A stretch of 64,000 nt of DNA from a virus. The translations under genes and the position numbers were made by a program. Every line of letters starts with the position of its first letter. Within the stretch, counting starts at the first letter, position 1. The stretch is from positions 1 to 64,000 of IMG/VR virus record IMGVR_UViG_3300048930_001424, one strand, 5' to 3'. A model generated the notes under the pieces. It had not been told where the DNA came from and did not search any database. It saw only the letters and a program-made list of their open reading frames with translations. Of the stretch, positions 31,733-51,411 are shown piece after piece.

Positions 31733-32788
31733 TCACATTGAGAGTCGCAGTTCGCCGGGCTTGCGTTCGAATCGGCTGACAAAATCAGCCTCATGCAAGC
31801 AGAGCAATTGCGCCAGGCTCTCCGTAGTGTGCCCCGCCGAATCACGCAGTTCTCGGAGCAGATCATCGACCAGTACTGGCTCCTCGCCCGCTATTTCAAC
31901 GAGTTCCTTCTTCCGCTGGCCCGTCACGCTGAGGCGACGGAACATGTGCTCGAAGTCGTTGTCCGAAATCCGACCAAGATCGCGAGCGCGATACACAAGT
32001 GAGGCCATCGAGACGCGCCACACAGGCTTGAGGCTCGCCGCACGGGTGAGAGTCAAACCCGAGAGCTCTGAACCGATAAGGCTCTCAGGCATGAGAAACT
32101 CCGAGGCGAAGCGGTTCGCTTCGTCCTCCATCGTCTCCGTCGCCGTCTCGTGCATCACGACGTGTCCGAGTTCGTGGCACAACGAGAACCTCACGCGATC
32201 CGCTGGTGCCTCGGCATTGATGAAGAACAGGGGCGGAGTGTCCTTTGGCCACATGCTGATCGCGTCGATGTCGCGTGTGCCGAACGCAAATTTGAAGACG
32301 ATGCCGCCAGCCGCCTCAATGACGCGGACGAGATTCTGCACCGGGCCGCTGGGCAGCTGCCAACTGGCGCGAACCAGAGCCGCAATCTTCTCGGGATCGT
32401 GACCATGCTCGTCGATGTCGAGAAACTCGACGCTGTGGGGGGTCGAAATATCCACTTCACTGATCAATCGACGGACCAGCATCCGCCGAATATTGACCTC
32501 TGCTTCCAGACGATGGATGTCCGCGGCTTTGGTGGCCGCTTTCTTCCGGTAGAACATGACGCTGAGGCCGAGACCACGCCGCTCGTCCTGCTGGAAAAAG
32601 AATGAACGTGGATACCCGAGAGTGGTGCAGATTCGATCCAGAACTTCTTCGGATGGCTCGCGGTGGCCTCCCTCCATGTGGCTGACGTAGGGCTGAGAGA
32701 CTCTGAGTCGCTCGGCAAGCTCTGTTCGATTCATGGCACGCGATTCTCGCGCGAGCACAAGCATGTCGTGGTTGAACGTGCCGGTCAT
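31733..32788 (-). CDS. XRE HTH + ImmA/IrrE metallopeptidase
   Basis: ELAERLRVSQPYVSHMEGG HTH; RFSLCHELGH HExxH; EDEANRFASEFLMP. Confidence 0.9.
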   Translation of the reverse strand: MTGTFNHDMLVLARESRAMNRTELAERLRVSQPYVSHMEGGHREPSEEVLDRICTTLGYPRSFFFQQDERRGLGLSVMFYRKKAATKAADIHRLEAEVNIRRMLVRRLISEVDISTPHSVEFLDIDEHGHDPEKIAALVRASWQLPSGPVQNLVRVIEAAGGIVFKFAFGTRDIDAISMWPKDTPPLFFINAEAPADRVRFSLCHELGHVVMHETATETMEDEANRFASEFLMPESLIGSELSGLTLTRAASLKPVWRVSMASLVYRARDLGRISDNDFEHMFRRLSVTGQRKKELVEIAGEEPVLVDDLLRELRDSAGHTTESLAQLLCLHEADFVSRFERKPGELRLSM

Positions 32789-33539: not shown

Positions 33540-33567
33540 TTGACGGCACTATCGCATGTGCTATACT
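33540..33567 (+). promoter_or_regulatory. sigma70-type promoter TTGACG-N16-TATACT with extended TG
   Basis: Near-consensus hexamers about 45 nt upstream of the helicase ATG. Confidence 0.6.
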
Positions 33568-33611
33568 CGTTCCAAGTGAAGCACGCGATAGACTCCAATC
33601 AGGAACTGCCG

Positions 33612-36600
33612 ATGCCTCCTGCCCGTCCAAGCAGCCCGGTCCCTGCGGACTACGGTGCGAAGATCAAGGAACTGCGCGGCCGCCTCGGCCTCACGCAGGT
33701 CAGGTTGTCTGAGCGTTTAGGAGTCTCGTTCGCCACCGTGAACCGGTGGGAGAACGCCCAAAGCCGTCCCTCTCCCTTGGCGTGGCAACAGATCCTGGAA
33801 CTGGGTGGCGACGAAGAAGCCGTCGCCGAGGTACCCGAGGATCGCCCACGTTCAGCGGTCATGGATTTCACTGGCCGCCCTGATGCGATCAGGGCGCTGG
33901 CGGAGGGGGAGCGGCTCTCGTTTGGCCACATGACGAATCCCGTGTTCGCCACCGAAATCGCTCAGATCGACCCGCTGCCGCACCAGCGCATCGCCGTCTA
34001 CGACCACATGCTCAAGCAGCCTCGGCTCCGATTCCTGCTCGCCGACGACGCGGGCGCGGGCAAGACGATCATGTCGGGACTCTACATCCGCGAGATGTTG
34101 TCCCGGCGACTGCTGCGGCGCATTTTGGTGGTGCCGCCAGCCGGGCTCGTGGGGAACTGGCGGCGCGAACTCTCGACGCTTTTCAGCCTGTCGTTCCGAA
34201 TCGTCGAAGGCTCCGAAGCCGCGTCGGGCAATCCCTTCATTGGCGACGACAGTGACCGCGTCATCGTGAGCGTGGACACCTTGTCCGGCCCGCGCGTGTT
34301 CGGCCGTCTCCGCGAACCAGAGGTGCAGCCCTACGACCTCGTGATCTTCGACGAGGCCCACAAGCTCGCCGCTGATCGCGGCGGCGACCTTAGGGTCCGC
34401 AGAACTGAGCGTTACCGACTGGCCGAGGCGTTGGCGGGCGTGCCAGATCTTGACGAGGCGTGGACGCTTCCCTGGAGCGCGGCCAACCTGCTGCTGCTGA
34501 CGGCGACGCCGCACATGGGTAAGGACTATCCGTACTTTGCGCTGTGGCGGCTGCTCAATCCTTCTGTCATCTCCACGCCTGAAGCGTTCAACGAGTATCC
34601 CCCGGACCAGCGGGGGCTCCACTTCATCCGGCGCACCAAAGAGGAAATGGTCACGCTGACGGGTCGTCCGCTTTACCCAACGCGAATCTCCGACACGCTC
34701 GGCTACGCCCTGTCGCAGGGTGAAGTCAGCGAGCAGGCACTCTACGACGGCACCACGGAGTACCTGCGATTCATCTACAACAAGGCGAAAATGCTGAACC
34801 GCTCGGCTGCTCGCCTGGCCATGAGCGTGTTCCAGCGCCGCTTGGCGAGTTCCACATTCGCACTCCTGCGGTCCTTCGAGCGGCGGATAGAACGCTTGAC
34901 GACGCTCATCGAGGATGTTCAGGCGGGCAAGATCACGATGGAGCAAATCATCACGCTCCAGCGCCGCATCTCTGACGATGACGACGTGTTCGACTCAAAG
35001 ACGGCTGACGACGAACGGTCCCCGGTAGACGGCGGCGAGGAGAATGAAAAGGCCGAGCAGTCGCTGCTGCAGGGGGTGATCGCCGCGTCGATCGCCGACC
35101 TCATCGCCGAGCGCGACCAGGTGCAGGAACTCCGCGATCTCGCCCAGCGGGTGTACGACAAGGGCGTCGAGTCCAAGTTCGAGAAGCTCCGGGAAGTCAT
35201 CCTCGAGGACCGCTTCGCGCATGAGAAACTGATCGTCTTTACCGAGCACCGCGACACACTCACATTTCTTGTCCGACGCCTCAATGGCATGGGGTACACC
35301 GGCCAGGTCGCTCAAATCCACGGCGGGATGCACTACAGCGAGCGCGAGGAACAGGTTGAAAAGTTCCGCAAGCCCATCGCCGAAGGCGGGGCACGGTTCA
35401 TGATCTGTACCGACGCGGCCGCTGAGGGCATCAACCTTCAGTTCTGTTGGGTGATGATCAACTACGACGTGCCCTGGAATCCCGCGCGGCTCGAACAGCG
35501 CATGGGCCGCATCCACCGCTACGGTCAGCAGCACGATCCCGTGATCATCATGAACCTCATCGCCCCCGAGACGCGCGAGGGCAAGGTGATGGAGACGCTC
35601 CTAGAGAAACTGGAGCGCATCCGTAAGCAGCTCAAGTCCGACAAGGTCTTCGACGTGATCGGACGGCTGTTCCAGGGTGTTTCGATCAAGCAGTACATGG
35701 AGGCCGCCGTCGAAGAGGATGACGCCGCAGCTGTCGCCGCCAAACTCGGTGGTATCCTGACCGCCGAGCAGGTCGAAGCGTTGGCCGAGCGAGAGAAGTC
35801 GCTCTTTGGGGATGGCGGCGATGTGAAGCGGGAACTGCCCCGTATCCGTGCTGAGATCGACAACGAGGCATATCGCCGACTGCTGCCCGGCTATGTCCGC
35901 CAATACATCGAGAACGCCGCCCCGCTCGTGGACATCGAGATCGACGGAGATGCACGCTCGTTTTTTTCGTTCAAGCCCGCTCGTCGCGGCGCGATCGACC
36001 GCATCTTGCCCACGTTGGACTTCTACCCCACGCGCCTTCACGAACTCCTGACGGTCTCCCGCCCGCCCAGCAAAGCGGACGGTATCTGGGTGCATCCCGG
36101 CGAGCCCGTCTTTGAGCAGTTCCGGGCCATCGTGTCCGACCGGCTGAGCGCCGAGGCCGCGAAGGGCGGGGTGTTCGTCGATCCCGACGCGGAGCGCCCG
36201 TACCTATTCCACCTCGCGCTTGTGTCGGTCGTCCGCGACGCCGATCCGCAGATGCCCGAGCTCGGTGCAGCATCCACGTTTGAATCCCGTCTCGTCGGCG
36301 TCAAGCAGTTCGAAGGGACTGAACTTCAGGTCTGTCCCGTCGAGCACTTGCTGTTGCTCAAGGGAGGCACAGGGCTTCCAGCAGCGGCGCAACGGCTGGC
36401 GGTCGCGGCACCGGGACTCCGAGATCAGGCGGCCGCGTTCATCGTCGAACGCGTCGCCCGGCAGTTGGCCATCGACCGCAAGAACCGACTGCTCTCCACG
36501 ATCGAGGAACGCGAAGCCTTCCTGCGGCGGGGCTTCAGCTACCAGGAGGCCGAACTCGCCGCCGCCCGCGGCAAGCAGGCCGAAAAGGCGCGATCAGGCA

Positions 36601-37181
36601 ACCGCACCGCCGCGAAAGAACTGGAGGAGATCAAGCGGGCGCAGCGTGATCTCACGGCCCGCCGTGACCGAGCCATCGCGGTCATCCGCCGCGAGCCGGA
36701 ACTGATCGGTCTTGCCCCGATTCATTTCGTCGCTCACGCTCTCGTGGTGCCATCCTCAGACCCGCTCGATCGCGAGCGACACGACGCTGATGTTGAGCAT
36801 GTCGCCATGCAGATCGCTTGGGCATGGGAGGAATCAGAGGGAGCCGTCGTCAAGGACGTGCATACGCCAGAACTCGCGCGGGCGGCGGGCTTGCCGGATT
36901 ACCCGGGCTTCGATCTGTTGTCGGTGCGGCCGAGCGGTGAGAAACGGGGCATCGAGGTCAAGGGCCGTGCCGCGACCGGCGACGTGGAGTTGTTCTCCAA
37001 CGAGTGGGCCAAGGCGTGCAACATGGGGCCGTCTTACTGGCTTTATGTGGTCTACGACTGCGCCACTCCAACGCCGCGACGTGCGCGCGTCCGCGACCCA
37101 TTCAATCGTCTGCTCGCCAAGGCAAAGGGCAGCATCCTCATCAGCGCTAAGCAGATTCTCTCTGTGGAAGGCGATGCCTGA
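33612..37181 (+). CDS. XRE-HTH + SNF2 helicase + DUF3883 nuclease
   Basis: LGVSFATVNRWEN; LLADDAGAGKT; DEAH; LLTATPH; WNPARLEQRMGRIHRYGQ; GFDLLS...IEVKG...NEW. Confidence 0.9.
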   Translation: MPPARPSSPVPADYGAKIKELRGRLGLTQVRLSERLGVSFATVNRWENAQSRPSPLAWQQILELGGDEEAVAEVPEDRPRSAVMDFTGRPDAIRALAEGERLSFGHMTNPVFATEIAQIDPLPHQRIAVYDHMLKQPRLRFLLADDAGAGKTIMSGLYIREMLSRRLLRRILVVPPAGLVGNWRRELSTLFSLSFRIVEGSEAASGNPFIGDDSDRVIVSVDTLSGPRVFGRLREPEVQPYDLVIFDEAHKLAADRGGDLRVRRTERYRLAEALAGVPDLDEAWTLPWSAANLLLLTATPHMGKDYPYFALWRLLNPSVISTPEAFNEYPPDQRGLHFIRRTKEEMVTLTGRPLYPTRISDTLGYALSQGEVSEQALYDGTTEYLRFIYNKAKMLNRSAARLAMSVFQRRLASSTFALLRSFERRIERLTTLIEDVQAGKITMEQIITLQRRISDDDDVFDSKTADDERSPVDGGEENEKAEQSLLQGVIAASIADLIAERDQVQELRDLAQRVYDKGVESKFEKLREVILEDRFAHEKLIVFTEHRDTLTFLVRRLNGMGYTGQVAQIHGGMHYSEREEQVEKFRKPIAEGGARFMICTDAAAEGINLQFCWVMINYDVPWNPARLEQRMGRIHRYGQQHDPVIIMNLIAPETREGKVMETLLEKLERIRKQLKSDKVFDVIGRLFQGVSIKQYMEAAVEEDDAAAVAAKLGGILTAEQVEALAEREKSLFGDGGDVKRELPRIRAEIDNEAYRRLLPGYVRQYIENAAPLVDIEIDGDARSFFSFKPARRGAIDRILPTLDFYPTRLHELLTVSRPPSKADGIWVHPGEPVFEQFRAIVSDRLSAEAAKGGVFVDPDAERPYLFHLALVSVVRDADPQMPELGAASTFESRLVGVKQFEGTELQVCPVEHLLLLKGGTGLPAAAQRLAVAAPGLRDQAAAFIVERVARQLAIDRKNRLLSTIEEREAFLRRGFSYQEAELAAARGKQAEKARSGNRTAAKELEEIKRAQRDLTARRDRAIAVIRREPELIGLAPIHFVAHALVVPSSDPLDRERHDADVEHVAMQIAWAWEESEGAVVKDVHTPELARAAGLPDYPGFDLLSVRPSGEKRGIEVKGRAATGDVELFSNEWAKACNMGPSYWLYVVYDCATPTPRRARVRDPFNRLLAKAKGSILISAKQILSVEGDA

Positions 37182-37217
37182 GATTGTCCTGGTCGGATTC
37201 TCGTGGGAAGCTCCCTT

Positions 37218-38288
37218 ATGGCAGACACACACTCCAAGTCCATTTGTGCAACTCTGGCAGACTACCGGCATGGCGAGATCGCTGCTCGAACGCCAGCCGA
37301 TGTCGATCGATGGATTAATCAGTTTGACAAGGGCGATCGAGACGTGGTCCTTCAGGAGACGGACCGGTTATTGCAAAAGCACTACGTCAGCGGAAAGGCC
37401 GCCAGGGCGTTCATCGACAGCATCTGGGCGACACAGAAGCTGATGGGAGCGTCGGCCGCATCAACAGTTGGCGGGTTCAAGTTCTTGGAGGTTGCCCGTA
37501 AGGGGGCAAGCCAAGGCGCCATGATCGAGTTGGCGAGATCTAGCCTCAAGCAGGCTCTCCGACTTGATCTCGATGCGTGCGGCAAGAGCCCTACGGCATA
37601 CGTCTATTTAGATGACTGCCTTTTTTCCGGCAACACCGTTGTGCACGATCTCAAGGATCACGTTGACGACCTGGCCAAGAACTCGACTGTCCACATGGTG
37701 TTCCTCGGCGGACACAACGGCGGGGTCAGGTACATCACGAAAGCTCTCGCACCCATCCTCGCCAAGCGTGGGATCAAGCACAACGTATGGACGATCCCCA
37801 CTCACACCTTTCAGAATCTACCCTGGGAGCCGGAGTCCTTCCAGCCGATGTGGCCCACCGAGGTGAAGGGTGACAAGCTGGTCGATGCCTACCTGGCTCG
37901 CGTGCAGAAAGCGTGTGAGGGCAAGTCCTTCACGCCCAGGCTGTTCCGGCCTCAGGCACGGACCAAAGAGGACGTGTTCTCTTCCCCTGCGGCGCGTCAA
38001 GCTGTTGAGACCGCGTTTCTGCGCAAGGGAGCATTCATTGTCGCGCAGTGCCAGAACCCGAAGGACAGCATGCGTCCGCTCGGCTACGAGTATCTGAGCT
38101 CACTCGGGTTTGGGGCGTTGATTGTGACCTACCGCAACATCGCGAACAACTGCCCCTTGGCGCTGTGGTGGGGCGATCCGAATGCCGCCAAGTCACATCC
38201 GCTCTCGAAGTGGTTCCCGTTGATCCCCCGTAGAAGCAATCAGGAGACTGCGAGCTCATCCTTCAGTGCTGACGATTACGACTTCTGA
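37218..38288 (+). CDS. phosphoribosyltransferase-like (PRTase-CE-type) protein
   Basis: PRPP-loop-like YVYLDDCLFSGNTV; C-terminal PLGY...NIANNCPLALWW...WFPLIPR. Confidence 0.65.
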   Translation: MADTHSKSICATLADYRHGEIAARTPADVDRWINQFDKGDRDVVLQETDRLLQKHYVSGKAARAFIDSIWATQKLMGASAASTVGGFKFLEVARKGASQGAMIELARSSLKQALRLDLDACGKSPTAYVYLDDCLFSGNTVVHDLKDHVDDLAKNSTVHMVFLGGHNGGVRYITKALAPILAKRGIKHNVWTIPTHTFQNLPWEPESFQPMWPTEVKGDKLVDAYLARVQKACEGKSFTPRLFRPQARTKEDVFSSPAARQAVETAFLRKGAFIVAQCQNPKDSMRPLGYEYLSSLGFGALIVTYRNIANNCPLALWWGDPNAAKSHPLSKWFPLIPRRSNQETASSSFSADDYDF

Positions 38289-38301
38289 ATCGAACACCCA
38301 C

Positions 38302-41300
38302 ATGGCCAGAACACCAGAAACCCGCACCTACGACCGCGCGACCTCTGTGGTCTTCCTGAAGACCAAAGAGCGATTCGGTGGGCTGTCGAACATGGCGGGA
38401 GGGTTTCCATTGCAAGTTTGTGGCCGTCGCATCTTGACATCTGAGGCGTTGTACCAAGCGTGCCGGTTCCCGCACATGCCGGACATTCAGGAACTCATCG
38501 TCGATCAGTCGAGCCCGATGACTGCGAAGATGAAGAGCAAGCCCTACCGGAGTCAGTCCCGGGCGGATTGGGATGCTGTCCGCGTCACCATCATGCGCTG
38601 GTGTTTGCGCGTGAAGCTGGCTCAGAACTTCAAGTCGTTTAGCCGACTCCTGCGAGAGACGGGTGATCGGCCGATTGTCGAGGAGTCCCGCAAGGACGAC
38701 TTCTGGGGCGCGAAGCCCTCCACGCCAGACCGGCTTGAAGGCAAGAACGTCCTCGGTCGCTTGCTTATGGAGCTTCGCCAACTCGTTCTGGCGACGGCGG
38801 ACGACACGCTTCAGTCCGTCGACCCACCGGCCTTGCGTGAGTTTCTGATTTTTGGTCAACCGATCGGGCGGATTGGCGCGGGCGCGGCGGCACCCGCGCC
38901 CATGTCTGTCGCGGCGCTGTTCGCCGACGCTCCCGAGACATTGGAAGAAGCAAAGCCCATCACGGCCTCATCCGCTGGTCTCATCTCGCCCCCTGTGCCT
39001 GCTGTCGTTCCCGTGAGCATCACAATGACCGACCACCCACGCCTCATCGAACACGCCTTCCCATTGAAACAGGCGTCATTGGACTCCGTTCATGAGAAGA
39101 ACGTGCGCCATGGCCACATTTCTACGATCCATCTCTGGCCAGCACGGCGACCCCTCGCTGCTTGCCGGGCGGCACTGATCGCCACTCTACTGCCGGACCC
39201 CGGCACGCCCGAAGGCCGTCTGGCGCTGTGTGAGAAGATTGGCGGACGAGTGGTCAAGCGGATCGAGAAGAAGAAAATGCCGAACGGCTCCACGGTCGAG
39301 CGAGAAAAGCTCGACACTGAAGGGGGCATCCTCCACTGGGGGCGAGAAGTTGAGAACGTGGAGGCGATGGAGTGGTTCCGCCAGGAGATTCGCAAGGCCC
39401 ACGGCGGCCGCGCTCCAAAGGTGCTTGACCCTTTTTCGGGTGGTGGCGCAATCCCGCTCGAAGCCATGCGACTGGGATGCGAAGCGACGGCCGTGGACAT
39501 CAACCCGGTCGCATGGTTCACGCTCAAGTGCACTCTTGAATACCCGCAAAACCTCGCTGGTCAGACGTGTAGGCTCCCCGCATTCATTCTGCGCAATGAG
39601 GCCTTCATGTTCGAGTTCTTCACGAAGGCAAAGGGGATGAGCAAGGGCCAGGCCGCCAAGGCGATGGAACGGCTGGGACGGAAGCTCAAAGACGGAGAGC
39701 AGACTAACTTGGATTTCGGAGCCGCCGCGGGCGAACTCGACGCAGACATGGCATGGCACGTGCGGGCGTGGGGGCGATGGGTCCTAGAACGCGCCCGGCA
39801 CGACCTATTCAAGTACTACCCGACTTACGCTGACTTCGAACCGCTTAAAGACAGCGGTAAGGTCTACGAGCGCCAGCCGATGCGCCTCGTTCCTGCGAAT
39901 GAGAGCGGCGTTGCCGATTGTGATTCGCTCAACAGGGAGTTCTCAAAGGACTACCTGGCAGTCGCGGGCAATCCGCGGTGGTTGTCCAAACCGACAGTGG
40001 CGTATCTCTGGGCCCGCACAGTCACCTGCAAGAACTGTCGGGCAACGGTCCCATTGCTAAAGACACGCTGGCTTTGCAAGAGCGACAGAAAGCGGGTCGT
40101 TCTGACGATGACGCCACGTGCAGACGGGACTGGCGTTGTGTTCGGTATCGACAGCCAGGTTGAGAGCAAGGGTGGCAACGCAGCGCAGAAGAGGGAGCAC
40201 GACAAAAAGGTCGGCGCGGGCACCATGAGCCGCGCCGGTGCCAAATGCCCCTGCTGTCCGAGCATCATGACGATGGAGGACATTCGCTTGGAGGGACAGG
40301 CCGGGCGACTCGGAAGTGTGATGACCGCAGTCGTCGCGGATGAACCTCAGGGCAAGACTGGAAAGTCGTATCGCTTGCCGACTCGAGAGGAGCTCGAAGC
40401 GGCATCACTTGAGGAAGAGGCGATCAAGTCTGCATTCGCGGCCGTGCCGTTTGGCGTGCCTGAAGAGCCGACGCCCAGCGCTGATGCACTGGGCATGCGC
40501 ATCCCGCTCTACGGATTCAACAAATGGAGAACGCTTTTCACTCCTCGGCAGTTGCTTGCCCTTGGTGTTTTCGTCACCGACACGCGCGACGCTCGCAACG
40601 AAATGACCACTCACGGATACTCAGAAGAGTGGGTCGAAGCGGTTGGGGCTTACCTAGCGTGTGGCATCGATCGCCTATTGGATTTCGCCAACTGCGGCAC
40701 GCAATGGAAGCTCGACGCGAGCACCATCAACCACTCGTTCGTCCGCTTCGCTTTACCGATTACCTGGGACTACGCAGAGGGGAATCTCCTCGGCGAAAGC
40801 GCGGGAAGTTATCTGATTTGCCAAGATCGGATCGCCACGGCCTTGGACACGTTTTGCGAGTGGAAGTTCAGGTCTCCGGCACCGAAGATCATCCGCCAGT
40901 CATCTGTGCAGCCCACGCGAGGCGAATTTGATCTCATCCTGACAGATCCACCGTACTACGACGCAATCCCCTATTCGGATCTCATGGATTTTTTCTATGT
41001 GTGGCTTCGTCGAATGGTCGCCGGAGTAAGCAAGGACATCGATCTGGCATTTCAGGGCGACCTGTCGCCAAAATGGAGCGATGACGAGAACGATGGCGAG
41101 CTCGTTGACGACTCCAGCCGCCACAAGGGCGATGCGGCGAAGAGCAAACAAGTCTACGAGGACGGCATGGCCCGCGTCTTCACTCAATGCGCGGCCGTCC
41201 TCAAACCACAAGGCCGCCTGGTAATCGTTTTCGCCAACAAACAGCCCGACGCCTGGGAAACGCTCGTCTCAGCGATCATTCGTGCGGGGTTCACAGTGGA

Positions 41301-42348
41301 CGGAACCTGGCCCATCCAGACGGAGCAGGCGAGCCGAATGCGAGCGATTTCCTCTGCCGCCCTCGCGTCTTCCGTTTGGCTTGTGTGCAAGAAGCGTTCT
41401 GCGACCGCCACTGCGGGATGGGACAACCGCGTCGTCGAAGAGATGCGGACAAACATCGGCAGGCGACTTCAAGAGTACTGGGATGCGGGGATCAAGGGGC
41501 CGGACTTCATCTGGGCAGCGACTGGCCCGGCTCTTGAAGCATTCAGCAAACATCCGGTCGTCAAGAAGGCCAACGGCCCCGGCACCATGAGTGTCACCGA
41601 GTTCCTCACGCACGTCCGTCGCCTCGTGGTGGACTACGTCGTCGGCCAGGTGCTTTCGGGCACGGATGGTGCCAGCGGAGTAGTTGGGAGTGGTGCGGCC
41701 GCCGACAGGTTGGATGAAGCCACGGCCTACTACTTACTTCACCGCAACGATTTTGGTCTCGGTGAAGCTGCCGTGGGCACCGTCATCCTCTACGCCGTCT
41801 CGTGCGGACTCTCCGACCGCGACTTGGTTGATACTTGGGAATTGGCCGTCATGGTCGGTGATGACACTGTCACAGCCGATGATGCAGAAGACGAAGCTCA
41901 AGACGGTGGTGACGGACCTTCCGAGGATGAGTCAGGTAGCAAGGGGAGCACCATCCGCCTAAAGCGATGGAGTGAACGCACAGGTCGGAGCAGCGCCTCC
42001 ATCGGCTACGAAGCCCCCGGCGGACGACCCGTGCCGCTCATCGATCGTGTCCACCGCGTGATGCAGTTGTACAAGGCTGGCGACATCGGTAAGGTTGACG
42101 AGTATCTTGACGAGCACGGTCTGCGCCGTCACGAACTGTTTAAGCGTGTAATCCAGTCACTGATCGAGGTGTCGCGCCGGGAGCGAGGGACGGCCGCGGG
42201 CGGTCGTGATGATCACGGCGACGAGACGACGCTACTCGAAGCTCTCAGCAACCACATCGGGGCCAAGGGTGCGAAGCGGCAGACAGGCCAGCGCGAACTA
42301 AGCGAGACCACCGACAATTGGACGCCGACCTCGGCGTCGGCGGAGTAA
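38302..42348 (+). CDS. NADAR domain fused to DUF1156 adenine-specific DNA methyltransferase
   Basis: NADAR: GGLSNM...SEALYQACRF...W...IVEES..DDFWG...GKNVLGRLLMELR; DUF1156 HLWPARRPLAACRA; LDPFSGGG; TDPPYYD. Confidence 0.85.
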   Translation: MARTPETRTYDRATSVVFLKTKERFGGLSNMAGGFPLQVCGRRILTSEALYQACRFPHMPDIQELIVDQSSPMTAKMKSKPYRSQSRADWDAVRVTIMRWCLRVKLAQNFKSFSRLLRETGDRPIVEESRKDDFWGAKPSTPDRLEGKNVLGRLLMELRQLVLATADDTLQSVDPPALREFLIFGQPIGRIGAGAAAPAPMSVAALFADAPETLEEAKPITASSAGLISPPVPAVVPVSITMTDHPRLIEHAFPLKQASLDSVHEKNVRHGHISTIHLWPARRPLAACRAALIATLLPDPGTPEGRLALCEKIGGRVVKRIEKKKMPNGSTVEREKLDTEGGILHWGREVENVEAMEWFRQEIRKAHGGRAPKVLDPFSGGGAIPLEAMRLGCEATAVDINPVAWFTLKCTLEYPQNLAGQTCRLPAFILRNEAFMFEFFTKAKGMSKGQAAKAMERLGRKLKDGEQTNLDFGAAAGELDADMAWHVRAWGRWVLERARHDLFKYYPTYADFEPLKDSGKVYERQPMRLVPANESGVADCDSLNREFSKDYLAVAGNPRWLSKPTVAYLWARTVTCKNCRATVPLLKTRWLCKSDRKRVVLTMTPRADGTGVVFGIDSQVESKGGNAAQKREHDKKVGAGTMSRAGAKCPCCPSIMTMEDIRLEGQAGRLGSVMTAVVADEPQGKTGKSYRLPTREELEAASLEEEAIKSAFAAVPFGVPEEPTPSADALGMRIPLYGFNKWRTLFTPRQLLALGVFVTDTRDARNEMTTHGYSEEWVEAVGAYLACGIDRLLDFANCGTQWKLDASTINHSFVRFALPITWDYAEGNLLGESAGSYLICQDRIATALDTFCEWKFRSPAPKIIRQSSVQPTRGEFDLILTDPPYYDAIPYSDLMDFFYVWLRRMVAGVSKDIDLAFQGDLSPKWSDDENDGELVDDSSRHKGDAAKSKQVYEDGMARVFTQCAAVLKPQGRLVIVFANKQPDAWETLVSAIIRAGFTVDGTWPIQTEQASRMRAISSAALASSVWLVCKKRSATATAGWDNRVVEEMRTNIGRRLQEYWDAGIKGPDFIWAATGPALEAFSKHPVVKKANGPGTMSVTEFLTHVRRLVVDYVVGQVLSGTDGASGVVGSGAAADRLDEATAYYLLHRNDFGLGEAAVGTVILYAVSCGLSDRDLVDTWELAVMVGDDTVTADDAEDEAQDGGDGPSEDESGSKGSTIRLKRWSERTGRSSASIGYEAPGGRPVPLIDRVHRVMQLYKAGDIGKVDEYLDEHGLRRHELFKRVIQSLIEVSRRERGTAAGGRDDHGDETTLLEALSNHIGAKGAKRQTGQRELSETTDNWTPTSASAE

Positions 42349-42354
42349 TCGAAC

Positions 42355-45300
42355 ATGGCAAAACTACCCTGGAAACCCTGGCACGAAGTGGTCAAGCTGC
42401 GGGACGATCTCAAGTCAGGCGAGCTGCCTCTGCACATGTTCGCTGCGGACCTCTACGAGGTCCTGATGCAGAACGGCAAACGGCCGATCTACGAAAAACC
42501 GGAGAACTTCTTCGCGCTGACTTTCCCGACGCACAACCTGCGCGCCCTGGTTCGTGACGTGGTGCTTCGCGTCGCAGGCAAAAATGACAAGGCTGTGCGC
42601 CAGTTGGAGCTCACATACGGCGGTGGCAAGACGCACACGCTCATCACACTCCGCCATCTCGTGCATGATCCGTCGGCACTGCCGGACGTGCCCGCCGTCG
42701 GCGAGTTCGAGCAAGCGATTGGGATGAAGCCACCGAAGGCCCGCGTCGCTGGCCTGTGCTTTGACAAGCTCGACGTTGAGACGGGAATGGATGTTCGGTC
42801 GCCGGACGGCAAGGTCCGGCGGCTGAAGCAGCCCTGGAGCGTGCTCGCGTACCAGATCGCGGGCGATGACGGGCTCAAGCTCCTGCACGCCGACAAGAAG
42901 GCCGAGGAACGCGAGTCAGCCCCCGCCGAGAACGTCCTCACCGAGTTGCTGGAGATCCCGGTCAAGCAGGGCTTCGGCGTGCTCATCCTCATCGATGAGG
43001 TGCTGATGTATGTGCGCGAGAAGGTCGCCCTCGCGCCCGACTACCGGGCGCGTATGGTGAACTTCTTCCAGTACCTGACGCAGGCGGCTACAAAGGTGGA
43101 CCGCTGCTGCATCGTGGCCTCGCTTCTGGCCAGCGACCCCAAGAAGAATGACGCCTTCGGCAACGAACTCAAGGCCGAGCTCTACGACATCTTCCAACGC
43201 CAACGAGAAGAGGCCGTCGAGCCGGTCGTAAAGGAGGACGTGGCCGAGGTGCTTCGGCGGCGGTTCTTCACGACCGAGTCCATCAAGACCCCCGGCGACT
43301 TCAAGCAGCATGTGATCGCCGCAATCAAGGGCATCGCCGACCTAGACGAGCAGACCGCCAAGCAGGGACTCGCGACGGAGGACCGCTACCTCAAGAGCTT
43401 CCCCTTCCACCCCGAACTGACGGAAGTCTTCTACAGCAAGTGGACCCAACTGGATGGCTTCCAGCGCACCCGTGGCGTGCTGCGGACGTTCGCGCTCGCG
43501 CTCCGCGAAGCGGAGAAGTGGGATACCAGCCCCCTCGTTGGTCCTGCGGCGTTCCTGACCGCGCCGGGCAAGAGCGGTCTTTCAGAGGCGGTGGGCGAAC
43601 TCGTCACGGTGGCCGACACCGGCGGAGGCGACGGCGGCCGCCGCCAGGCGTGGACTGGCATCCTCGTGGGCGAGTTGGCGCAGGCCCAGAACATCCAGTT
43701 GGAGTCGGTCGGCCTGAGGTTCCGTGAGATCGAGGAGGCCGTGATCGCCACGTTCCTTCACTCTCAGCCCATCGGTCAGACAGCCAAGACGCGGGAACTC
43801 ATGCTCCTGCTGGGGCCGACCCGCCCGTTCCGAATCGATTTGGAGAAGGGCCTCACCCGCTGGGCACAAACGAGTCATTGGCTCGACGACCGCCTCGCAC
43901 CCGGAGGGAACGACCTGCCCGCCCAGTGGCGGCTGGGCAACCGCCCGAACCTCAACCAGATGCACTCCAAGGCTGCGGGCGAGATCTCCGATGATGTAGC
44001 TCGCGCCCGCCTGATCGATGAGATCGGCAAGACTAAGGCCCTGACCTCCGGCGCCTCAGCCGCTGGTGTGCGCGTTCACACGCTCCCTGCCAAGCCAAAG
44101 GAAATCGACGATGACGGCGTGTTCCGGTACGCAGTGCTGGGACCGAGCGCGGCCTCGGAATCGGGCAAGCCGAGCGCCGAGGCCAAACGGTTCCTTGACG
44201 AGACCACAGGCGCGGAAAAGCCCCGCGTGTTTCGCAACTCCGTGCTGCTGCTGACCCCGTCAAAGGACGGGCTCGAAGTGGCGATGGCCCGCGTGCGCGA
44301 GCTCATGGCGTGGGACGTGGTCCAGAAGGACCTCAAGGAGCAGGAGAAAGAGGGGAACGTCGATGCGTCGCGGTTGGCGACGTTGGCCATGAACATCGAC
44401 AAAGCCAAGGGCCGCATTCCCGAAGCGGTGAAGCAGGCGTACTGCATCGTCGTGACCGTGAACGACAAGGACGATGTCCACGCCTTCAAGATCACGGTCA
44501 CCGACGATCCAATCTTTCAGACAATCAAAGAGGATCAGCGGTCACGCATTCAGGACACGGCGATCACCGCAGAGGCCCTCCTCCCCGATGGTCCGTATAG
44601 CCTCTGGAAAGAGGGCGAAACCAGTCGTCGCGTGAAGGACCTCGCCGGGGCGTTTGCGCAGATGCCGCACCTTCCGAAGATGCTCAAGTCGCAGGCGATC
44701 GTGGACACGTTGGTGGAAGGCTGCGCACAGGGTGCGTTCGTTTTGCGCCTGATGCGCCCCGACCGGACGTTCCGTACCTGGTGGAGGAGTCGCCCCGACG
44801 AGGCGGCGCTTAACGATCCCGCGCTCGAACTCGTGTTGCCGAAGGCAGCTGAACTCACAGACGTGGATTCTGATCTGCTGCGGCAAGGCGCGCTGCCGAG
44901 CCTCTGGGCTGGCACTCAGATCACGGTTGCGGATGTGAAGTCGTATTTCAACGGCTCCAAGGTCGTTCAGGTTCAACGGGATGGGTACGAGGAACCCGTG
45001 CTGATTCCCAAGGCATCGAGCGAGGCGATCGAGCGGGGGGTGACGGAGGCAGTTGAGGCAGGGGCCATCTGGCTCACGTCTGGCCCGGCGAGCCTTTTGG
45101 GCGAACCGATCCCAGCAGGAATCCTCACCGACGCTGCGACGCTGCTCCCACCACCCGCGGCGATCACCGCTCCCGAAATCCTGCCCGAAAATCTGCCGTC
45201 GGCGTGGCAGGGCGGCGAAGCAACCGCCCTGGCGCTGGCCACCGCGCTGTCGCAGAACGTGGGGAGGACGCTGCCGTGGAAAACCGTTCGAGACGTGATC

Positions 45301-45669
45301 GGCGGCGCGATCGCAGCGAGGTTTGTGTCCGTTGGTTCCGGGACATGGCCATGTGACTTGGCCGGTGCGGGAGTCGTGCGGCTCAAGGTTGTCGCCGCTT
45401 CTGGCGGCGGAGGCGGAGGCGGGGGTGGCCCCGGCGAAGGCCGCAAGCAGAACGTTGCCATCGCCGCTGCGGACTTCGAGCCGTCTGAGATTCAGGACCT
45501 GAGCGACCACATGGCGCGGCTGCTTGAGATTCGTGCAAAGGCCAACGTGCCGATTCGCTTCCATGTCCGCGTGGAGCTTGGCGATGGGGCCAAGCCCCTG
45601 GACAAGAAACTCCTCGCGGAGTTCAACCAGGAACTGGCATCCCTCAAGGACGGGTTCTCTGTTCAATAA
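42355..45669 (+). CDS. DUF499 AAA+ ATPase
   Basis: KPWHEVVKLRDD, FAADL, YGGGKTH, LILIDE, FPFHPEL, FQRTRGVLR. Confidence 0.85.
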   Translation: MAKLPWKPWHEVVKLRDDLKSGELPLHMFAADLYEVLMQNGKRPIYEKPENFFALTFPTHNLRALVRDVVLRVAGKNDKAVRQLELTYGGGKTHTLITLRHLVHDPSALPDVPAVGEFEQAIGMKPPKARVAGLCFDKLDVETGMDVRSPDGKVRRLKQPWSVLAYQIAGDDGLKLLHADKKAEERESAPAENVLTELLEIPVKQGFGVLILIDEVLMYVREKVALAPDYRARMVNFFQYLTQAATKVDRCCIVASLLASDPKKNDAFGNELKAELYDIFQRQREEAVEPVVKEDVAEVLRRRFFTTESIKTPGDFKQHVIAAIKGIADLDEQTAKQGLATEDRYLKSFPFHPELTEVFYSKWTQLDGFQRTRGVLRTFALALREAEKWDTSPLVGPAAFLTAPGKSGLSEAVGELVTVADTGGGDGGRRQAWTGILVGELAQAQNIQLESVGLRFREIEEAVIATFLHSQPIGQTAKTRELMLLLGPTRPFRIDLEKGLTRWAQTSHWLDDRLAPGGNDLPAQWRLGNRPNLNQMHSKAAGEISDDVARARLIDEIGKTKALTSGASAAGVRVHTLPAKPKEIDDDGVFRYAVLGPSAASESGKPSAEAKRFLDETTGAEKPRVFRNSVLLLTPSKDGLEVAMARVRELMAWDVVQKDLKEQEKEGNVDASRLATLAMNIDKAKGRIPEAVKQAYCIVVTVNDKDDVHAFKITVTDDPIFQTIKEDQRSRIQDTAITAEALLPDGPYSLWKEGETSRRVKDLAGAFAQMPHLPKMLKSQAIVDTLVEGCAQGAFVLRLMRPDRTFRTWWRSRPDEAALNDPALELVLPKAAELTDVDSDLLRQGALPSLWAGTQITVADVKSYFNGSKVVQVQRDGYEEPVLIPKASSEAIERGVTEAVEAGAIWLTSGPASLLGEPIPAGILTDAATLLPPPAAITAPEILPENLPSAWQGGEATALALATALSQNVGRTLPWKTVRDVIGGAIAARFVSVGSGTWPCDLAGAGVVRLKVVAASGGGGGGGGGPGEGRKQNVAIAAADFEPSEIQDLSDHMARLLEIRAKANVPIRFHVRVELGDGAKPLDKKLLAEFNQELASLKDGFSVQ

Positions 45670-45701: not shown

Positions 45702-46496
45702 ATGCCAGCTAATGCACGAGATACATTCCGGATCGACATCGCCCGCGCTCAGGCTTTGGTAGATCATGCGGCGTCGCTCCCGAGTGGCTCAGACCCGGAA
45801 CATCTGTTGCGGGACGATGTGCTGCGTTCCGGCTGGATGTTCGCGGTTGGGGCGATGGATGCCTATTTCTGCGATGCCTATGCAGACGTGATTGCCGCGA
45901 CACTGATTTGCAAAGCGAGAGAACCGGGGGTCGTATTACCTGCCTTCGTGCTGAAGATCCAAGTGCCAGTGGCGACGATCCTCGAGGCCTACACGGCTCG
46001 CCCGAACTGGAAGTGGCGCATGGCTGCCCGGGCCATGCTCGAGGAGGAAAACGCCTTGCAGATCGAGACGATTCGGAAGTGGTTCAACCCCTTCTTTGAC
46101 AAGCCCGCAAAAGTGTTCTTTGAAGTCGTTCCAGCATGGCTCGCAGTTGCCCCAGCACCTGACAGGCTCTTTGGCACGACCAATGCTGTCTTTTCCGCAT
46201 TGGTCGGGAAGGCTCGTTCAGATGCCCACACGGAGGCCCGAGACGCGTTTCATGGTCGGTTGACTGAGATGGTCCAGCGGCGGCACGACTGCATCCATGC
46301 CTGCGACCGTCCCGGCAACTCGCCGCAGCCAATTGCGGGGCCGGGCACCGTTGGAAACGTCATTCGCGACATTACCTTTGTGGTCGAGCAGTTCAACACC
46401 CATCTCGATACCGAGTTCCGGCGCTGGCTCGCCTGCGGCGGTGTGCCGGGGTCCACGGGCTTTTCAAACGCCGCGATTCAGCAGGTGGGGTATTGA
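45702..46496 (+). CDS. HEPN-domain protein (putative RNase)
   Basis: LRSGWMFAVGAMDAYF helix and RHDCIH (Rx4H) motif; AAGGAG RBS. Confidence 0.65.
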   Translation: MPANARDTFRIDIARAQALVDHAASLPSGSDPEHLLRDDVLRSGWMFAVGAMDAYFCDAYADVIAATLICKAREPGVVLPAFVLKIQVPVATILEAYTARPNWKWRMAARAMLEEENALQIETIRKWFNPFFDKPAKVFFEVVPAWLAVAPAPDRLFGTTNAVFSALVGKARSDAHTEARDAFHGRLTEMVQRRHDCIHACDRPGNSPQPIAGPGTVGNVIRDITFVVEQFNTHLDTEFRRWLACGGVPGSTGFSNAAIQQVGY

Positions 46497-46914
46497 CAGC
46501 GAGGGCTTGCGATTTGATCGGGCGACGTGAGGTACGGGCAGTGCTGTTAACCAGAGAATCGCCCCTCAGAACGCCCCTGGTGGCCCGGATTCGACGGTTT
46601 GAACCCGTTACGATCGGGGAGCTTCAAGGGCCGCGGCCAAGTGCCGCGGCCCTGTTCGTTTACGGCTCGGGTAGCCCCTGGCCCCTCTGGCACCGCGCCA
46701 GTTCCACGCGGGAATCCGCGAAGTTTGGCGGCCCACGGCAAGCCGAACCGCGTTCTCCGGTTTGCCACCTTTGCCTAGACGGCATCGTTGAACGCGGCTT
46801 CAGGTCGCGCGTGGCGCGCCAAACTCTCGACTCTCGGTAGAGAGCGGTCGAGCGGGTTTACAGGTTGGTTGCCGATAGCCCCGAACGCCCGAGCCGGTTC
46901 GCAACGCGGCCGCG

Positions 46915-48810: not shown

Positions 48811-48955
48811 CAGGTATCCCAGACAGATGGCGGACAGGGGCCAGGGAGCCGCAGGCGTCCATCGAAGTCGGATGGTACAGGACCCCGCCCTCCTGGGCAG
48901 GAAGGGCCATCAGCCCGTACCATGTCGATTCCCGCATAGCCAGCAACCCTTCCCA

Positions 48956-51337: not shown

Positions 51338-51411
51338 TCGCCCTACAACCCGCCCCTGTCCCTCGTCTCCACCCCCGCTCCCCTGACCTCACAGATGAAC
51401 TGAACCCCGCG

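What the first reader, a model, noticed from the sequence alone, without database searches (positions are those of the whole stretch)
37218..39030. PRTase-like gene paired with a NADAR domain fused in frame to the DNA methylase
Seen: a NADAR domain (~38302-38870) joined by a Pro/Ala linker to the MTase, which retains a possible own start (ATG 39025, MTDHPRLIE). The gene upstream has a PRTase PRPP-loop. No DarT/ART gene was recognised in the window. Known: NADAR enzymes hydrolyse N-glycosidic bonds and reverse DarT1 guanine ADP-ribosylation. Inference: a new toxin-antitoxin chemistry in which the PRTase phosphoribosylates a base or nucleotide and NADAR erases it. Tethering the antitoxin to the methylase would make it a guard that triggers if a phage inhibits or degrades the MTase.
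Basis: partly seen in the sequence, partly recalled or inferred. Interest (0 to 1): 0.84.

Follow-up and report, generated by a model that had tools for sequence, protein, structure and literature searches.

The report
DS-32 defence pair fused into Hma
A known two-gene anti-phage pair (a phosphoribosyltransferase and a NADAR sugar-base hydrolase) sits inside a restriction-like Hma operon with the hydrolase fused to the DNA methylase, and this wiring, apparently undescribed in print, hints that the pair works on or near DNA.

Summary
Gene 37218-38288 is a PRTase-CE protein with an intact PRPP loop. Gene 38302-42348 joins a NADAR domain through a 51-residue Ala/Pro-rich linker to a DUF1156 methylase, with ATG 39025 at the junction.

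The pair is not a new chemistry. Both halves pass NCBI's equivalog models for DS-32, a PRTase+NADAR system validated against phages in E. coli, whose mechanism is unknown. The pair is nested in a complete Hma (helicase-methylase-ATPase) operon.

Linkage is near absolute: 79 of 79 readable PRTase loci have the NADAR gene adjacent.

The fusion is real. Contigs from two other studies bridge the junction without indels. NADAR is also fused to seven other, mutually distant Hma methylases, and to the HsdS subunit in 11 Type I systems. About a fifth to a third of stand-alone NADARs end in a sliding-clamp-binding-like peptide.

Best reading: a toxin/antidote-like writer-eraser pair whose eraser is tethered to DNA-bound host machinery.

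This scan has already met the same architecture on other DNA. I class it as a new variant of known kinds.

The parts
33540..37181 (+). HmaA: N-terminal HTH, SNF2/DEAD helicase and C-terminal NOV_C (DUF3883) module
   Evidence: PADLOC HmaA PDLC00659 E 4.6e-150. Pfam Helicase_C, ResIII, NOV_C (aa 1086-1176) and HTH_3 (aa 42-87).
37218..38288 (+). DS-32A: PRTase-CE phosphoribosyltransferase-like effector. PRPP loop at 37599-37637, NNCP motif at 38145, acidic-aromatic C-terminal tail ...ADDYDF.
   Evidence: NCBIfam NF053875 DS32_1_antiphage 322.3 bits against a cut-off of 250. Pfam PF24390 E 1e-48. Motifs.
38302..38871 (+). DS-32B NADAR N-glycosidase domain, the N-terminal part of the fusion protein
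   Evidence: NCBIfam NF053876 DS32_2_antiphage 276.6 bits against a cut-off of 240. Pfam PF08719. Nearest solved structure is E. coli YbiA 2B3W, E 5.6e-16. Glu of the SE motif, IVE Glu, and D..WG are conserved in the subfamily.
38872..39024 (+). 51-residue Ala/Pro-rich linker joining NADAR to the methylase
   Evidence: 21 of 51 residues are Ala or Pro. Linkers of different length and sequence occupy the same place in seven other fusions. Contigs from two other studies cross it without indels.
39025..42348 (+). HmaB: DUF1156 N6-adenine DNA methylase part of the fusion. It begins at the internal ATG 39025.
   Evidence: PADLOC HmaB PDLC00661 E 1.9e-112. DUF1156 at aa 264-314. FSGGG and DPPY motifs. 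72-74% identical to unfused methylases.
42355..45669 (+). HmaC: DUF499 ATPase
   Evidence: PADLOC HmaC PDLC00662 E 4.4e-72. Pfam DUF499 E 1.3e-20.

Best explanation
SHOWN. The locus is a DS-32 anti-phage pair (DS-32A PRTase-CE, DS-32B NADAR) nested in one operon between the helicase and the methylase of a complete Hma / Type-1 DUF499 'BREX-related' system. The NADAR half is genuinely fused to the N-terminus of the HmaB DNA methylase.

INFERRED MECHANISM.
- The PRTase uses PRPP to attach 5-phosphoribose to an amino nitrogen of a nucleobase. My best guess is that the base is in DNA or at the replication fork. The alternative is the nucleotide pool. The product is toxic.
- The YbiA-type NADAR hydrolyses that N-ribosyl bond and so acts as the antidote. 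This mirrors DarT1/NADAR, with PRPP in place of NAD+.
- The antidote is kept on DNA-bound host platforms. Here that is the Hma methylase. Elsewhere it is the Type I HsdS subunit or, through a C-terminal QxxLF-like peptide, probably the beta sliding clamp.
- As a result, host DNA is kept clean. Toxicity would appear where the platform is absent, bypassed or inhibited by a phage. This would give the restriction-like system a second, abortive layer.
For: Identity:
- NF053875 scores 322.3 bits (cut-off 250) and NF053876 scores 276.6 bits (cut-off 240).
- HmaA, HmaB and HmaC match at E 4.6e-150, 1.9e-112 and 4.4e-72.
- Intergenic gaps are 36, 13 and 6 nt.

Linkage:
- 79 of 80 PRTase-anchored genome loci have the NADAR adjacent, and the 80th is truncated. 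The order is PRTase then NADAR in 76 and the reverse in 3.
- 13 of 13 viral contigs whose NADAR is at least 55% identical, with upstream DNA present, have the PRTase.
- In a sample of 400 genomes of one class, the same 2 genomes carry both genes and none carries only one.

Antidote-like behaviour:
- The NADAR is more conserved than the PRTase in 78 of 78 loci (median 60.8% against 35.8% identity to the window).
- The catalytic Glu, Glu and Asp-x-x-Trp-Gly positions are kept.
- NADAR is the proven antitoxin of DarT1 (PMC11543638, passages).
- Orphan near-DS-32B NADARs sit in phage structural and RNA-repair neighbourhoods. This recalls phage orphan antitoxins against DarTG1 (PMC11825919, abstract in a search listing only).

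Chemistry:
- The NADAR is nearer to YbiA, an N-glycosidase of phosphoribosylamino intermediates, than to the DarT1-type NADAR. TIGR02464 scores 72.5 bits and 2B3W matches at E 5.6e-16, against 8BAU at 1.3e-4.

Tethering:
- NADAR is fused to HsdS in 11 genome loci and 6 viral loci.
- NADAR is fused to 8 Hma methylases whose methylase parts are only 27-48% identical to each other. The window's methylase is 72-74% identical to unfused ones, and 119 of its 120 nearest relatives lack NADAR.
- QxxLF occurs in the last 40 residues of 24 of 165 stand-alone NADARs. It occurs in 4 of 473 other ORFs and 0 of 80 PRTases. Shuffled tails give a mean of 1.1 and a maximum of 5.
- The E. coli copy ends in QSLSLF.
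Against: - No biochemistry exists for DS-32. The preprint reports defence and a structural comparison only.
- The one studied relative of the PRTase, the Retron-Eco11 effector, lowered PRPP by about 50%, and no adduct was shown (PMC12746101).
- ShosT, another defence PRTase, disrupts purine metabolism (PMC11961720, abstract in a listing only).
- Close DS-32A homologues are fused to nucleoside-deoxyribosyltransferase-like domains (P0091, P0111). This points to nucleotides rather than DNA.
- Two of the 150 NADAR representatives are single-chain PRTase::NADAR proteins (P0195, P0245). That suits cooperating enzymes better than a toxin and its antidote, although these may be gene-calling artefacts.
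- The clamp-like peptide is found in only 15-32% of stand-alone NADARs, depending on the pattern used. Binding is not shown.
- Two NADAR fusions are to M78 peptidase domains and one is to an AbiH/SIR2-like region. None of these is an obvious DNA platform.
- The Lys that binds phosphate in DarT1-type NADAR is Arg here.
Confidence: 0.5

Rival explanations
1. Cooperative PRPP drain. The PRTase and the NADAR are both effectors. The PRTase puts phosphoribose on a recyclable acceptor and the NADAR cleaves it off again. The net reaction is PRPP + H2O giving ribose-5-phosphate + PPi. This starves nucleotide synthesis once the pair is switched on. The fusion partners (methylase, HsdS, clamp) would act as regulators or sensors, not as delivery vehicles.
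For: - The Retron-Eco11 PRTase-CE effector depletes PRPP (PMC12746101).
- Single-chain PRTase::NADAR proteins exist (P0195, P0245).
- Neither gene was found without the other in the 400-genome sample.
- Nucleoside-deoxyribosyltransferase-like domains are fused to close PRTase homologues.
Against: - Retron PRTases work without any NADAR.
- It does not explain why the NADAR, and not the PRTase, is the half tethered to DNA-binding partners.
- It does not explain why phages would carry orphan close relatives of the NADAR.
- It does not explain why the NADAR is so much more conserved than the PRTase.
Confidence: 0.2
2. Autonomous passenger. DS-32 works here exactly as the stand-alone pair does. Embedding and fusion only secure co-expression and co-inheritance with Hma, and there is no mechanistic cross-talk with the methylase.
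For: - Defence systems are very often embedded in Hma: 62.7% of 1,485 Hma systems carry embedded genes (Payne et al. preprint 10.1101/2024.01.29.577857, passages).
- The same pair defends as a two-gene unit in E. coli.
- 119 of the 120 nearest methylases are unfused.
Against: - Embedding does not require fusion, yet 22 of the 23 embedded cases seen here are fused. These are 17 HsdS fusions and 5 Hma methylases with locus context. The one exception is L051, which is unfused.
- The Hma fusions arose on methylases only 27-48% identical to each other.
- Stand-alone NADAR copies carry a different tethering-like peptide.
Confidence: 0.2
3. Assembly or annotation artefact. A lost stop codon or a frameshift merged a separate NADAR gene with the methylase gene.
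For: - One relative (L051) has the two as separate genes 15 nt apart.
- ATG 39025 could be the old methylase start.
Against: - Contigs from two other studies (X3, 329 nt; X5, 625 nt) cross 38871-39025 with substitutions only and no gaps. No insertions or deletions are listed in any of the 4 runs.
- Seven other fused proteins from different phyla are known.
Confidence: 0.03
4. Housekeeping metabolite repair. This would be a YbiA-like N-glycosidase that clears reactive riboflavin intermediates, next to a nucleotide-salvage PRTase.
For: TIGR02464 (riboflavin-intermediate N-glycosidase) scores 72.5 bits, just under its cut-off of 73.7.
Against: - The DS-32 equivalog models score far higher.
- The pair is rare (2 of 400 genomes).
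- It is mobile. It occurs in the prophage nin region in 62 of 5,426 E. coli genomes, on plasmids and in viral contigs.
- It sits inside restriction systems.
Confidence: 0.02

Closest known systems
DS-32 (DefensePredictor, DeWeirdt et al.; bioRxiv 10.1101/2025.01.08.631726; NCBIfam NF053875/NF053876)
   Same: Both proteins pass the equivalog cut-offs. The gene order is the same, with the PRTase first, and the genes are tightly coupled. An E. coli prophage pair of the same two families is 30% (PRTase) and 45% (NADAR) identical to the window's pair.
   Different: Here the NADAR is not a roughly 200-aa stand-alone protein. It is the N-terminal domain of a 1,348-aa methylase, and the pair lies inside an Hma operon. 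I could not see the DS-32 sequences themselves because the supplements are closed. The link therefore rests on NCBI's models and on the domain description in the preprint.
Hma system (PADLOC), also called the Type-1 DUF499-centred BREX-related system (PMC12839542)
   Same: All three core genes are present, on one strand and contiguous, with strong model matches.
   Different: An extra gene (the PRTase) lies between hmaA and hmaB, and hmaB has an N-terminal NADAR domain. The BREX-related paper lists only nuclease-type auxiliary effectors in its main text and has no occurrence of NADAR, PRTase, ribosyl or YbiA.
DarTG1 (DarT1 ADP-ribosyltransferase with NADAR antitoxin; PMC11543638)
   Same: The gene order is toxin first and NADAR second. 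The NADAR hydrolyses an N-ribosyl bond to an exocyclic amino group of a base. The system has an anti-phage role.
   Different: No DarT is present. The writer here has a PRPP-type PRTase fold, not an ART fold. The NADAR is of the YbiA branch, with Glu in the last strand and Arg in place of the phosphate-binding Lys.
PrrC embedded in the EcoprrI Type I restriction system
   Same: A suicidal effector module sits inside a restriction-modification operon and is functionally tied to it. [quoted passage not shown]
   Different: PrrC is an anticodon nuclease held latent by protein contacts and is not a writer-eraser pair. Its activation by a phage anti-restriction peptide is recalled from memory and was not checked here. 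In the window the tie is a covalent fusion of the presumed antidote.
Retron type III-A PRTase effectors (for example Retron-Eco11; PMC12746101) and ShosT
   Same: They share the Pfam family PRTase-CE, a PRPP loop, an NNxP-type motif and a functional C-terminal tail. Eco11 defence needs the PRPP motif.
   Different: The neutraliser in retrons is the RT-msDNA complex, not a NADAR. PADLOC retron PRTase models match the window's PRTase only weakly (E 8.6e-07).

Membership tests
DS-32 | PRTase-like protein passing NF053875 (DS32_1_antiphage, equivalog) | tested here: met
   322.3 bits against a cut-off of 250, covering 3-322 of 322 model positions.
DS-32 | NADAR protein passing NF053876 (DS32_2_antiphage, equivalog) | tested here: met
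   276.6 bits against a cut-off of 240, covering 1-181 of 181 positions, for the piece 38302-39024. The whole fusion scores 271.8 bits.
DS-32 | The two genes are adjacent and co-oriented | tested here: met
   The stop is at 38288 and the ATG at 38302. The same arrangement holds in 79 of 79 readable loci.
DS-32 | Stand-alone two-gene unit with a small NADAR protein | tested here: not met
   The NADAR is in frame with a DUF1156 methylase in one ORF, 38266-42348.
DS-32 | Protects against phages | not testable with these tools
   Reported for the E. coli system only (preprint passages).
Hma / Type-1 BREX-related system | SNF2-type helicase with a C-terminal nuclease-like module (HmaA) | tested here: met
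   PDLC00659 E 4.6e-150 over aa 108-1199. NOV_C E 3.9e-13.
Hma / Type-1 BREX-related system | DUF1156 adenine methylase (HmaB) | tested here: met
   PDLC00661 E 1.9e-112, DUF1156 E 8.2e-17, and the FSGGG and DPPY motifs. NCBIfam NF042963 scores only 158 bits against a cut-off of 1000.
Hma / Type-1 BREX-related system | DUF499 ATPase (HmaC), same strand and contiguous | tested here: met
   PDLC00662 E 4.4e-72. The gene starts 6 nt after the hmaB stop.
DarTG1 | DarT ADP-ribosyltransferase next to the NADAR | tested here: not met
   PF14487 has no match in the 90,256-base record. The control genomes also gave none, so the test is weak. The upstream neighbour is a PRTase.
DarTG1 | NADAR of the BC4488 branch (Asp in the last strand, N-terminal extension) | tested here: not met
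   The best solved match is YbiA, E 5.6e-16, against 8BAU at 1.3e-4. The last strand reads IVEES, with an invariant Glu. The branch definition comes from PMC11125620.
Retron type III-A | PRTase-CE effector | tested here: met
   PF24390 E 1e-48.
Retron type III-A | Reverse transcriptase and ncRNA next to the effector | tested here: not met
   The neighbours are HmaA and NADAR-HmaB, and Pfam finds no RT domain in them. The ncRNA was not searched.

The most novel reading that the evidence does not exclude
DS-32A is a PRPP-dependent nucleic-acid phosphoribosyltransferase that writes a so far unknown DNA base adduct, N-(5-phosphoribosyl) on an exocyclic amine. DS-32B NADAR erases it only where it is carried along DNA by host machinery: the Hma methylase here, HsdS in Type I systems and the beta clamp in stand-alone copies. 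Self and non-self would then be told apart by targeted repair. Alternatively, the adduct would be unleashed when a phage anti-restriction protein pulls the methylase off DNA. In both cases a restriction-like system would act as the sensor of an abortive-infection toxin.
Probability: 0.3. Interest if true: 0.85.

Novelty: new variant of a known kind. Interest (0 to 1): 0.55.

Why it matters
DS-32 is a validated defence system with no known mechanism. The comparative pattern found here turns that open question into concrete experiments. The pattern is that the hydrolase half, and never the transferase half, is repeatedly and independently fused to DNA-recognising subunits of restriction-like systems, or else carries a clamp-binding-like tail.

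The experiments that follow are:
- look for a PRPP-derived adduct on DNA;
- test whether the NADAR removes it;
- test whether untethering the NADAR, or inhibiting the methylase, triggers toxicity.

If the reading is right, it would add a PRPP-based counterpart to NAD+-based DNA ADP-ribosylation. It would also be a clear example of a restriction system hard-wired to a toxin-antidote back-up.

Tried and rejected
Tools that did not run:
I used the search for related loci with my own ORF calling instead.
No fold comparison of the PRTase and no test of PRTase-NADAR binding was possible.

Searches that found little or nothing:
- The PRTase profile found nothing meaningful among solved structures (best E 0.078).
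- The phage collection holds no homologue of the PRTase.
- PADLOC has no dedicated model. It gave only weak retron PRTase_III-A matches and a weak PDC-M42C match to the NADAR.
- A hexapeptide clamp pattern (Q...LF) was not enriched: 3 of 165 stand-alone NADARs against 5 of 80 PRTases. I dropped it.
- The Atlas feature search gave only scores below 0.9. I used only its structure rows, and only as leads.
- The 400-genome sample has little power, because only one genome besides the seed carries the pair.

Limits of the read check:
- The runs are held as contigs, so they show continuity and not expression.
- No single contig spans the whole 37100-39400 stretch.
- The substitutions in the two bridging contigs were not all listed. 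I therefore cannot exclude a stop codon in those relatives.

Literature:
- I found no description of a NADAR-methylase or NADAR-HsdS fusion. The searches were 'PRTase'+'NADAR' (4 papers), 'PRTase-CE', 'Hma/DUF1156/DUF499', 'NADAR'+'phosphoribosyltransferase' and 'NADAR'+'restriction-modification'+'fused'. I also read passages in the papers these returned.
- Supplementary tables of the Payne and BREX-related papers may list such cassettes.
- The Science version's main text holds no 'DS-32' string.

Leads not followed:
- An earlier scan note says DarG is fused to an Hma methylase. I did not test it.
- The host was not identified. The nearest methylases carry Planctomycetota names, which is only a hint.


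Full report
WHAT IS THERE

The window is the first 64 kb of a 90,256-base IMG/VR record classed as a provirus. Between 33.5 and 45.7 kb, four co-oriented genes are separated by 36, 13 and 6 nt.
- 33540-37181 is HmaA. It has an HTH, an SNF2/DEAD helicase and a NOV_C module (PADLOC E 4.6e-150).
- 37218-38288 is a PRTase-CE protein (PF24390, E 1e-48).
- 38302-42348 is a single frame made of a NADAR domain (PF08719, E 1.9e-23), a 51-residue linker with 21 Ala or Pro residues, and a DUF1156 adenine methylase (HmaB, E 1.9e-112) with its FSGGG and DPPY motifs.
- 42355-45669 is the DUF499 ATPase HmaC (E 4.4e-72).

The PRPP loop YVYLDDCLFSGNT lies at nt 37599-37637 and its acidic pair and SG are invariant in the family. 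ATG 39025 (MTDHPRLIE) lies 10 codons before DUF1156. No DarT model matches the record, although that search also rang in no control genome.

WHAT THE PAIR IS

NCBI's curated equivalog models settle the identity. The PRTase scores 322.3 bits on NF053875 'DS32_1_antiphage' (cut-off 250). The NADAR piece scores 276.6 bits on NF053876 'DS32_2_antiphage' (cut-off 240).

DS-32 is a two-gene system (PRTase plus NADAR) that the DefensePredictor authors validated against phages in E. coli. They noted that its NADAR structurally resembles the DarTG antitoxin while its PRTase is unrelated to DarT. They called it a possible case of toxin-antitoxin partner swapping (preprint passages). No mechanism is given.

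I located an E. coli pair of the same two families in the nin region of lambdoid prophages. By blastn it is present in 62 of 5,426 complete genomes. It is 30% (PRTase) and 45% (NADAR) identical to the window's proteins.

The PRTase family is also the effector family of type III-A retrons (PMC13712802). In Retron-Eco11, defence needs the PRPP motif and a C-terminal peptide, and activation lowers PRPP by about half (PMC12746101).

LINKAGE

A pattern scan of one genome per species returned 142 relatives of the PRTase, of which the best 80 loci were kept.
- A NADAR homologue lies directly beside the PRTase in 79 loci (E 1e-35 to 1e-82). It is downstream in 76 and upstream in 3.
- The remaining locus ends inside the PRTase gene.

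Anchoring on the NADAR instead, 13 of 13 viral contigs with at least 55% identity and readable upstream DNA have the PRTase. In 400 sampled genomes of one class, the same two genomes carry both genes and none carries only one. All seven plasmid-collection hits were to genes annotated as 'hypothetical protein'. In the two I opened, the next gene is annotated 'NADAR family protein'.

The NADAR is always the better-conserved half. Median identity to the window is 60.8% for the NADAR against 35.8% for the PRTase, and the NADAR is higher in 78 of 78 loci.

IS THE FUSION REAL?

Yes, for three reasons.
- Contigs from other studies cross the junction. X3 (329 nt, 38758-39086, 17 substitutions) and X5 (625 nt, 38561-39119, 30 substitutions) both cross it without gaps. 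No insertion or deletion is listed for any of the four runs laid.
- NADAR-DUF1156 fusions occur in seven further proteins: L070, L078, L079, the truncated L045, P0213, P0226 and P0244. Their linkers differ in length and sequence.
- The methylase parts of these fusions are only 27-48% identical to each other. The window's methylase is 72-74% identical to unfused methylases. L070's methylase is 62% identical to that of L051, where the NADAR and the methylase are separate genes 15 nt apart. Of the 120 nearest relatives of the window's methylase, only its own database copy carries PF08719.

The simplest reading is repeated, independent fusion. A Met near the old methylase start survives in 5 of the 8 fusions but is not universal, so internal initiation remains open.

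A WIDER PATTERN

The NADAR half, and never the PRTase half, carries the variable appendages.
- In 11 genome loci and 6 viral loci it is fused to the N-terminus of a Type I specificity subunit. The operon order is hsdM, PRTase, NADAR::hsdS, hsdR.
- Two NADARs are fused to M78 peptidase domains, and one to a weak AbiH/SIR2-like region.
- Stand-alone NADARs often end in a peptide like the bacterial clamp-binding motif. The consensus is QL[S/D]LF, more generally QxxLF (PMC12309361, Introduction).
- QxxLF lies in the last 40 residues of 24 of 165 stand-alone NADARs. It occurs in 4 of 473 other ORFs of the same loci and in 0 of 80 PRTases. Shuffled tails give a mean of 1.1 and a maximum of 5 in 300 shuffles.
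- Within the last 12 residues the counts are 16 of 165 against 0 of 473.
- A looser pattern gives 52 of 165 against 20 of 473, and 19 of those instances are at the exact C-terminus.
- The E. coli copy ends in QSLSLF.

So in most architectures the hydrolase is attached, or plausibly attached, to something that rides on DNA.

Independent hints of a DNA link on the PRTase side come from Atlas structure neighbours, in which PRTase-CE is fused to RE_LlaJI, OLD-type TOPRIM, HD or wHTH domains (leads only).

HOW IT MOST LIKELY WORKS

Shown: identity, linkage, the fusion, and intact catalytic motifs in the PRTase, the NADAR and the methylase.

Inferred: the PRTase transfers 5-phosphoribose from PRPP to an amino nitrogen of a base, and the NADAR hydrolyses that bond. 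The grounds are as follows.
- NADAR enzymes cleave N-ribosyl bonds to exocyclic amines. Examples are ADP-ribosyl-guanine N2 in DarTG1 and phosphoribosylamino intermediates for YbiA (PMC11543638).
- This NADAR is closer to YbiA than to the DarT1-type enzyme. That suits a phosphoribosyl rather than an ADP-ribosyl substrate.
- The gene order copies DarT-NADAR.
- The extreme conservation of the NADAR fits an antidote whose loss is lethal.
- Phages carry orphan NADARs that score 190-235 bits on the DS-32B model, just under its cut-off. They lie beside baseplate, terminase or RNA-ligase genes, as expected if they serve as counter-defence antidotes.

I put about 0.5 on this writer-eraser and toxin-antidote reading as a whole. 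Within it, I put roughly 0.4 on DNA as the target and 0.35 on the nucleotide or PRPP pool.

For the fusion itself, I put about 0.8 on real functional coupling. Both predict that untethering matters.

AGAINST AND RIVALS

- The only biochemistry on a relative shows PRPP depletion, not an adduct.
- ShosT acts on purine metabolism (abstract in a listing).
- Close PRTase homologues carry nucleoside-deoxyribosyltransferase-like domains.
- Two single-chain PRTase::NADAR proteins exist. These favour a cooperative PRPP-drain model (0.2).
- A pure passenger model (0.2) is weakened by the fact that 22 of the 23 embedded cases seen here are fused.
- Artefact (0.03) and housekeeping (0.02) are disfavoured.

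COMPARISON AND NOVELTY

The pair is a member of DS-32 by NCBI's models but fails the stand-alone architecture. The operon is a full Hma, also called a Type-1 BREX-related system. It is not DarTG1, because there is no DarT and the NADAR is of the YbiA branch. It is not a retron, because there is no RT.

It works most like DarTG1 in logic, and like PrrC-EcoprrI in being wired into a restriction system. PrrC's trigger is recalled from memory, not checked.

Embedding of defence genes in Hma is known. Auxiliary effectors in BREX-related loci are described, but only nucleases. My searches found no printed account of a NADAR-methylase or NADAR-HsdS fusion. Supplements were not visible.

Earlier agents of this scan met the same Hma-plus-DS-32 fusion and the HsdS fusion on other DNA. 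Those notes gave me the NCBIfam accessions, which I then tested myself.

VERDICT

This is a correct observation of a known system in a new, recurrent, fused configuration. It is mechanistically suggestive but unproven.

Noticed in passing
window 31733-32788 (-), 46915-48810 (-), 48761-55355 (+), 55359-56819 (+): The Hma/DS-32 operon lies in a lower-GC defence island (0.59-0.64 GC over 32-58 kb against 0.66-0.68 over 24-32 kb upstream). The island holds an HTH + M78 peptidase gene, a GmrSD Type IV restriction enzyme, a separate Type I system (HsdR, HsdM and a weak HsdS-like gene) and an AAA_21/AbiEii-like ATPase.
   Followed up: partly
window 45702-46496 and 46493-46840 (+): Two overlapping ORFs (264 and 115 aa) directly after hmaC have no Pfam or PADLOC match. 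They could be further riders of the operon.
   Followed up: no
L099-L104 (viral contigs), NADAR genes such as L099:6019-6591: These are orphan NADARs 47-52% identical to the window's domain. They score 190-235 bits on the DS-32B model (cut-off 240) and have no PRTase nearby. They sit next to baseplate, terminase or RNA-ligase genes. They may be phage antidotes against DS-32.
   Followed up: partly
window 38241-38285 (PRTase C-terminus) and 80 homologues: Many DS-32A proteins end in a short acidic tail with a terminal aromatic residue (window ...ADDYDF; others FDDIDF, DDGDDLPF). 20 of 80 meet a simple criterion, against 15 of 609 other ORFs. Retron-Eco11's PRTase has an essential C-terminal peptide. 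The likeness to the SSB tail is from memory only.
   Followed up: partly
Stand-alone NADARs of L002-L081, P0125-P0274 and L084:4963-5574: These carry a C-terminal QxxLF-like (clamp-binding-like) peptide. The E. coli prophage copy ends in QSLSLF and the cyanobacterial copies in QLSLL or QLSLI.
   Followed up: yes
P0195, P0245, P0091, P0111: P0195 and P0245 are single-chain PRTase-CE::NADAR proteins (540 and 544 aa). P0091 and P0111 are close PRTase homologues with an N-terminal nucleoside-deoxyribosyltransferase-like domain. Gene-calling artefacts are not excluded for the first two.
   Followed up: no
L084 (E. coli NZ_AP022482.1 3403983-3405616): The E. coli DS-32-type pair sits between replication gene P and ybcN/ninE of a lambdoid prophage. 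By blastn it is present in 62 of 5,426 complete E. coli genomes.
   Followed up: partly
window 33663-33800 (HmaA aa 42-87): HmaA carries an N-terminal XRE-type HTH (HTH_3, E 1.5e-10). The PADLOC HmaA model starts matching only at aa 108.
   Followed up: no
window 38200-39300 in public runs: Near-identical or roughly 95% identical DNA is held by sludge, biofilm and bioreactor metagenomes from several studies. The nearest methylases bear Planctomycetota names. The host was not determined.
   Followed up: partly
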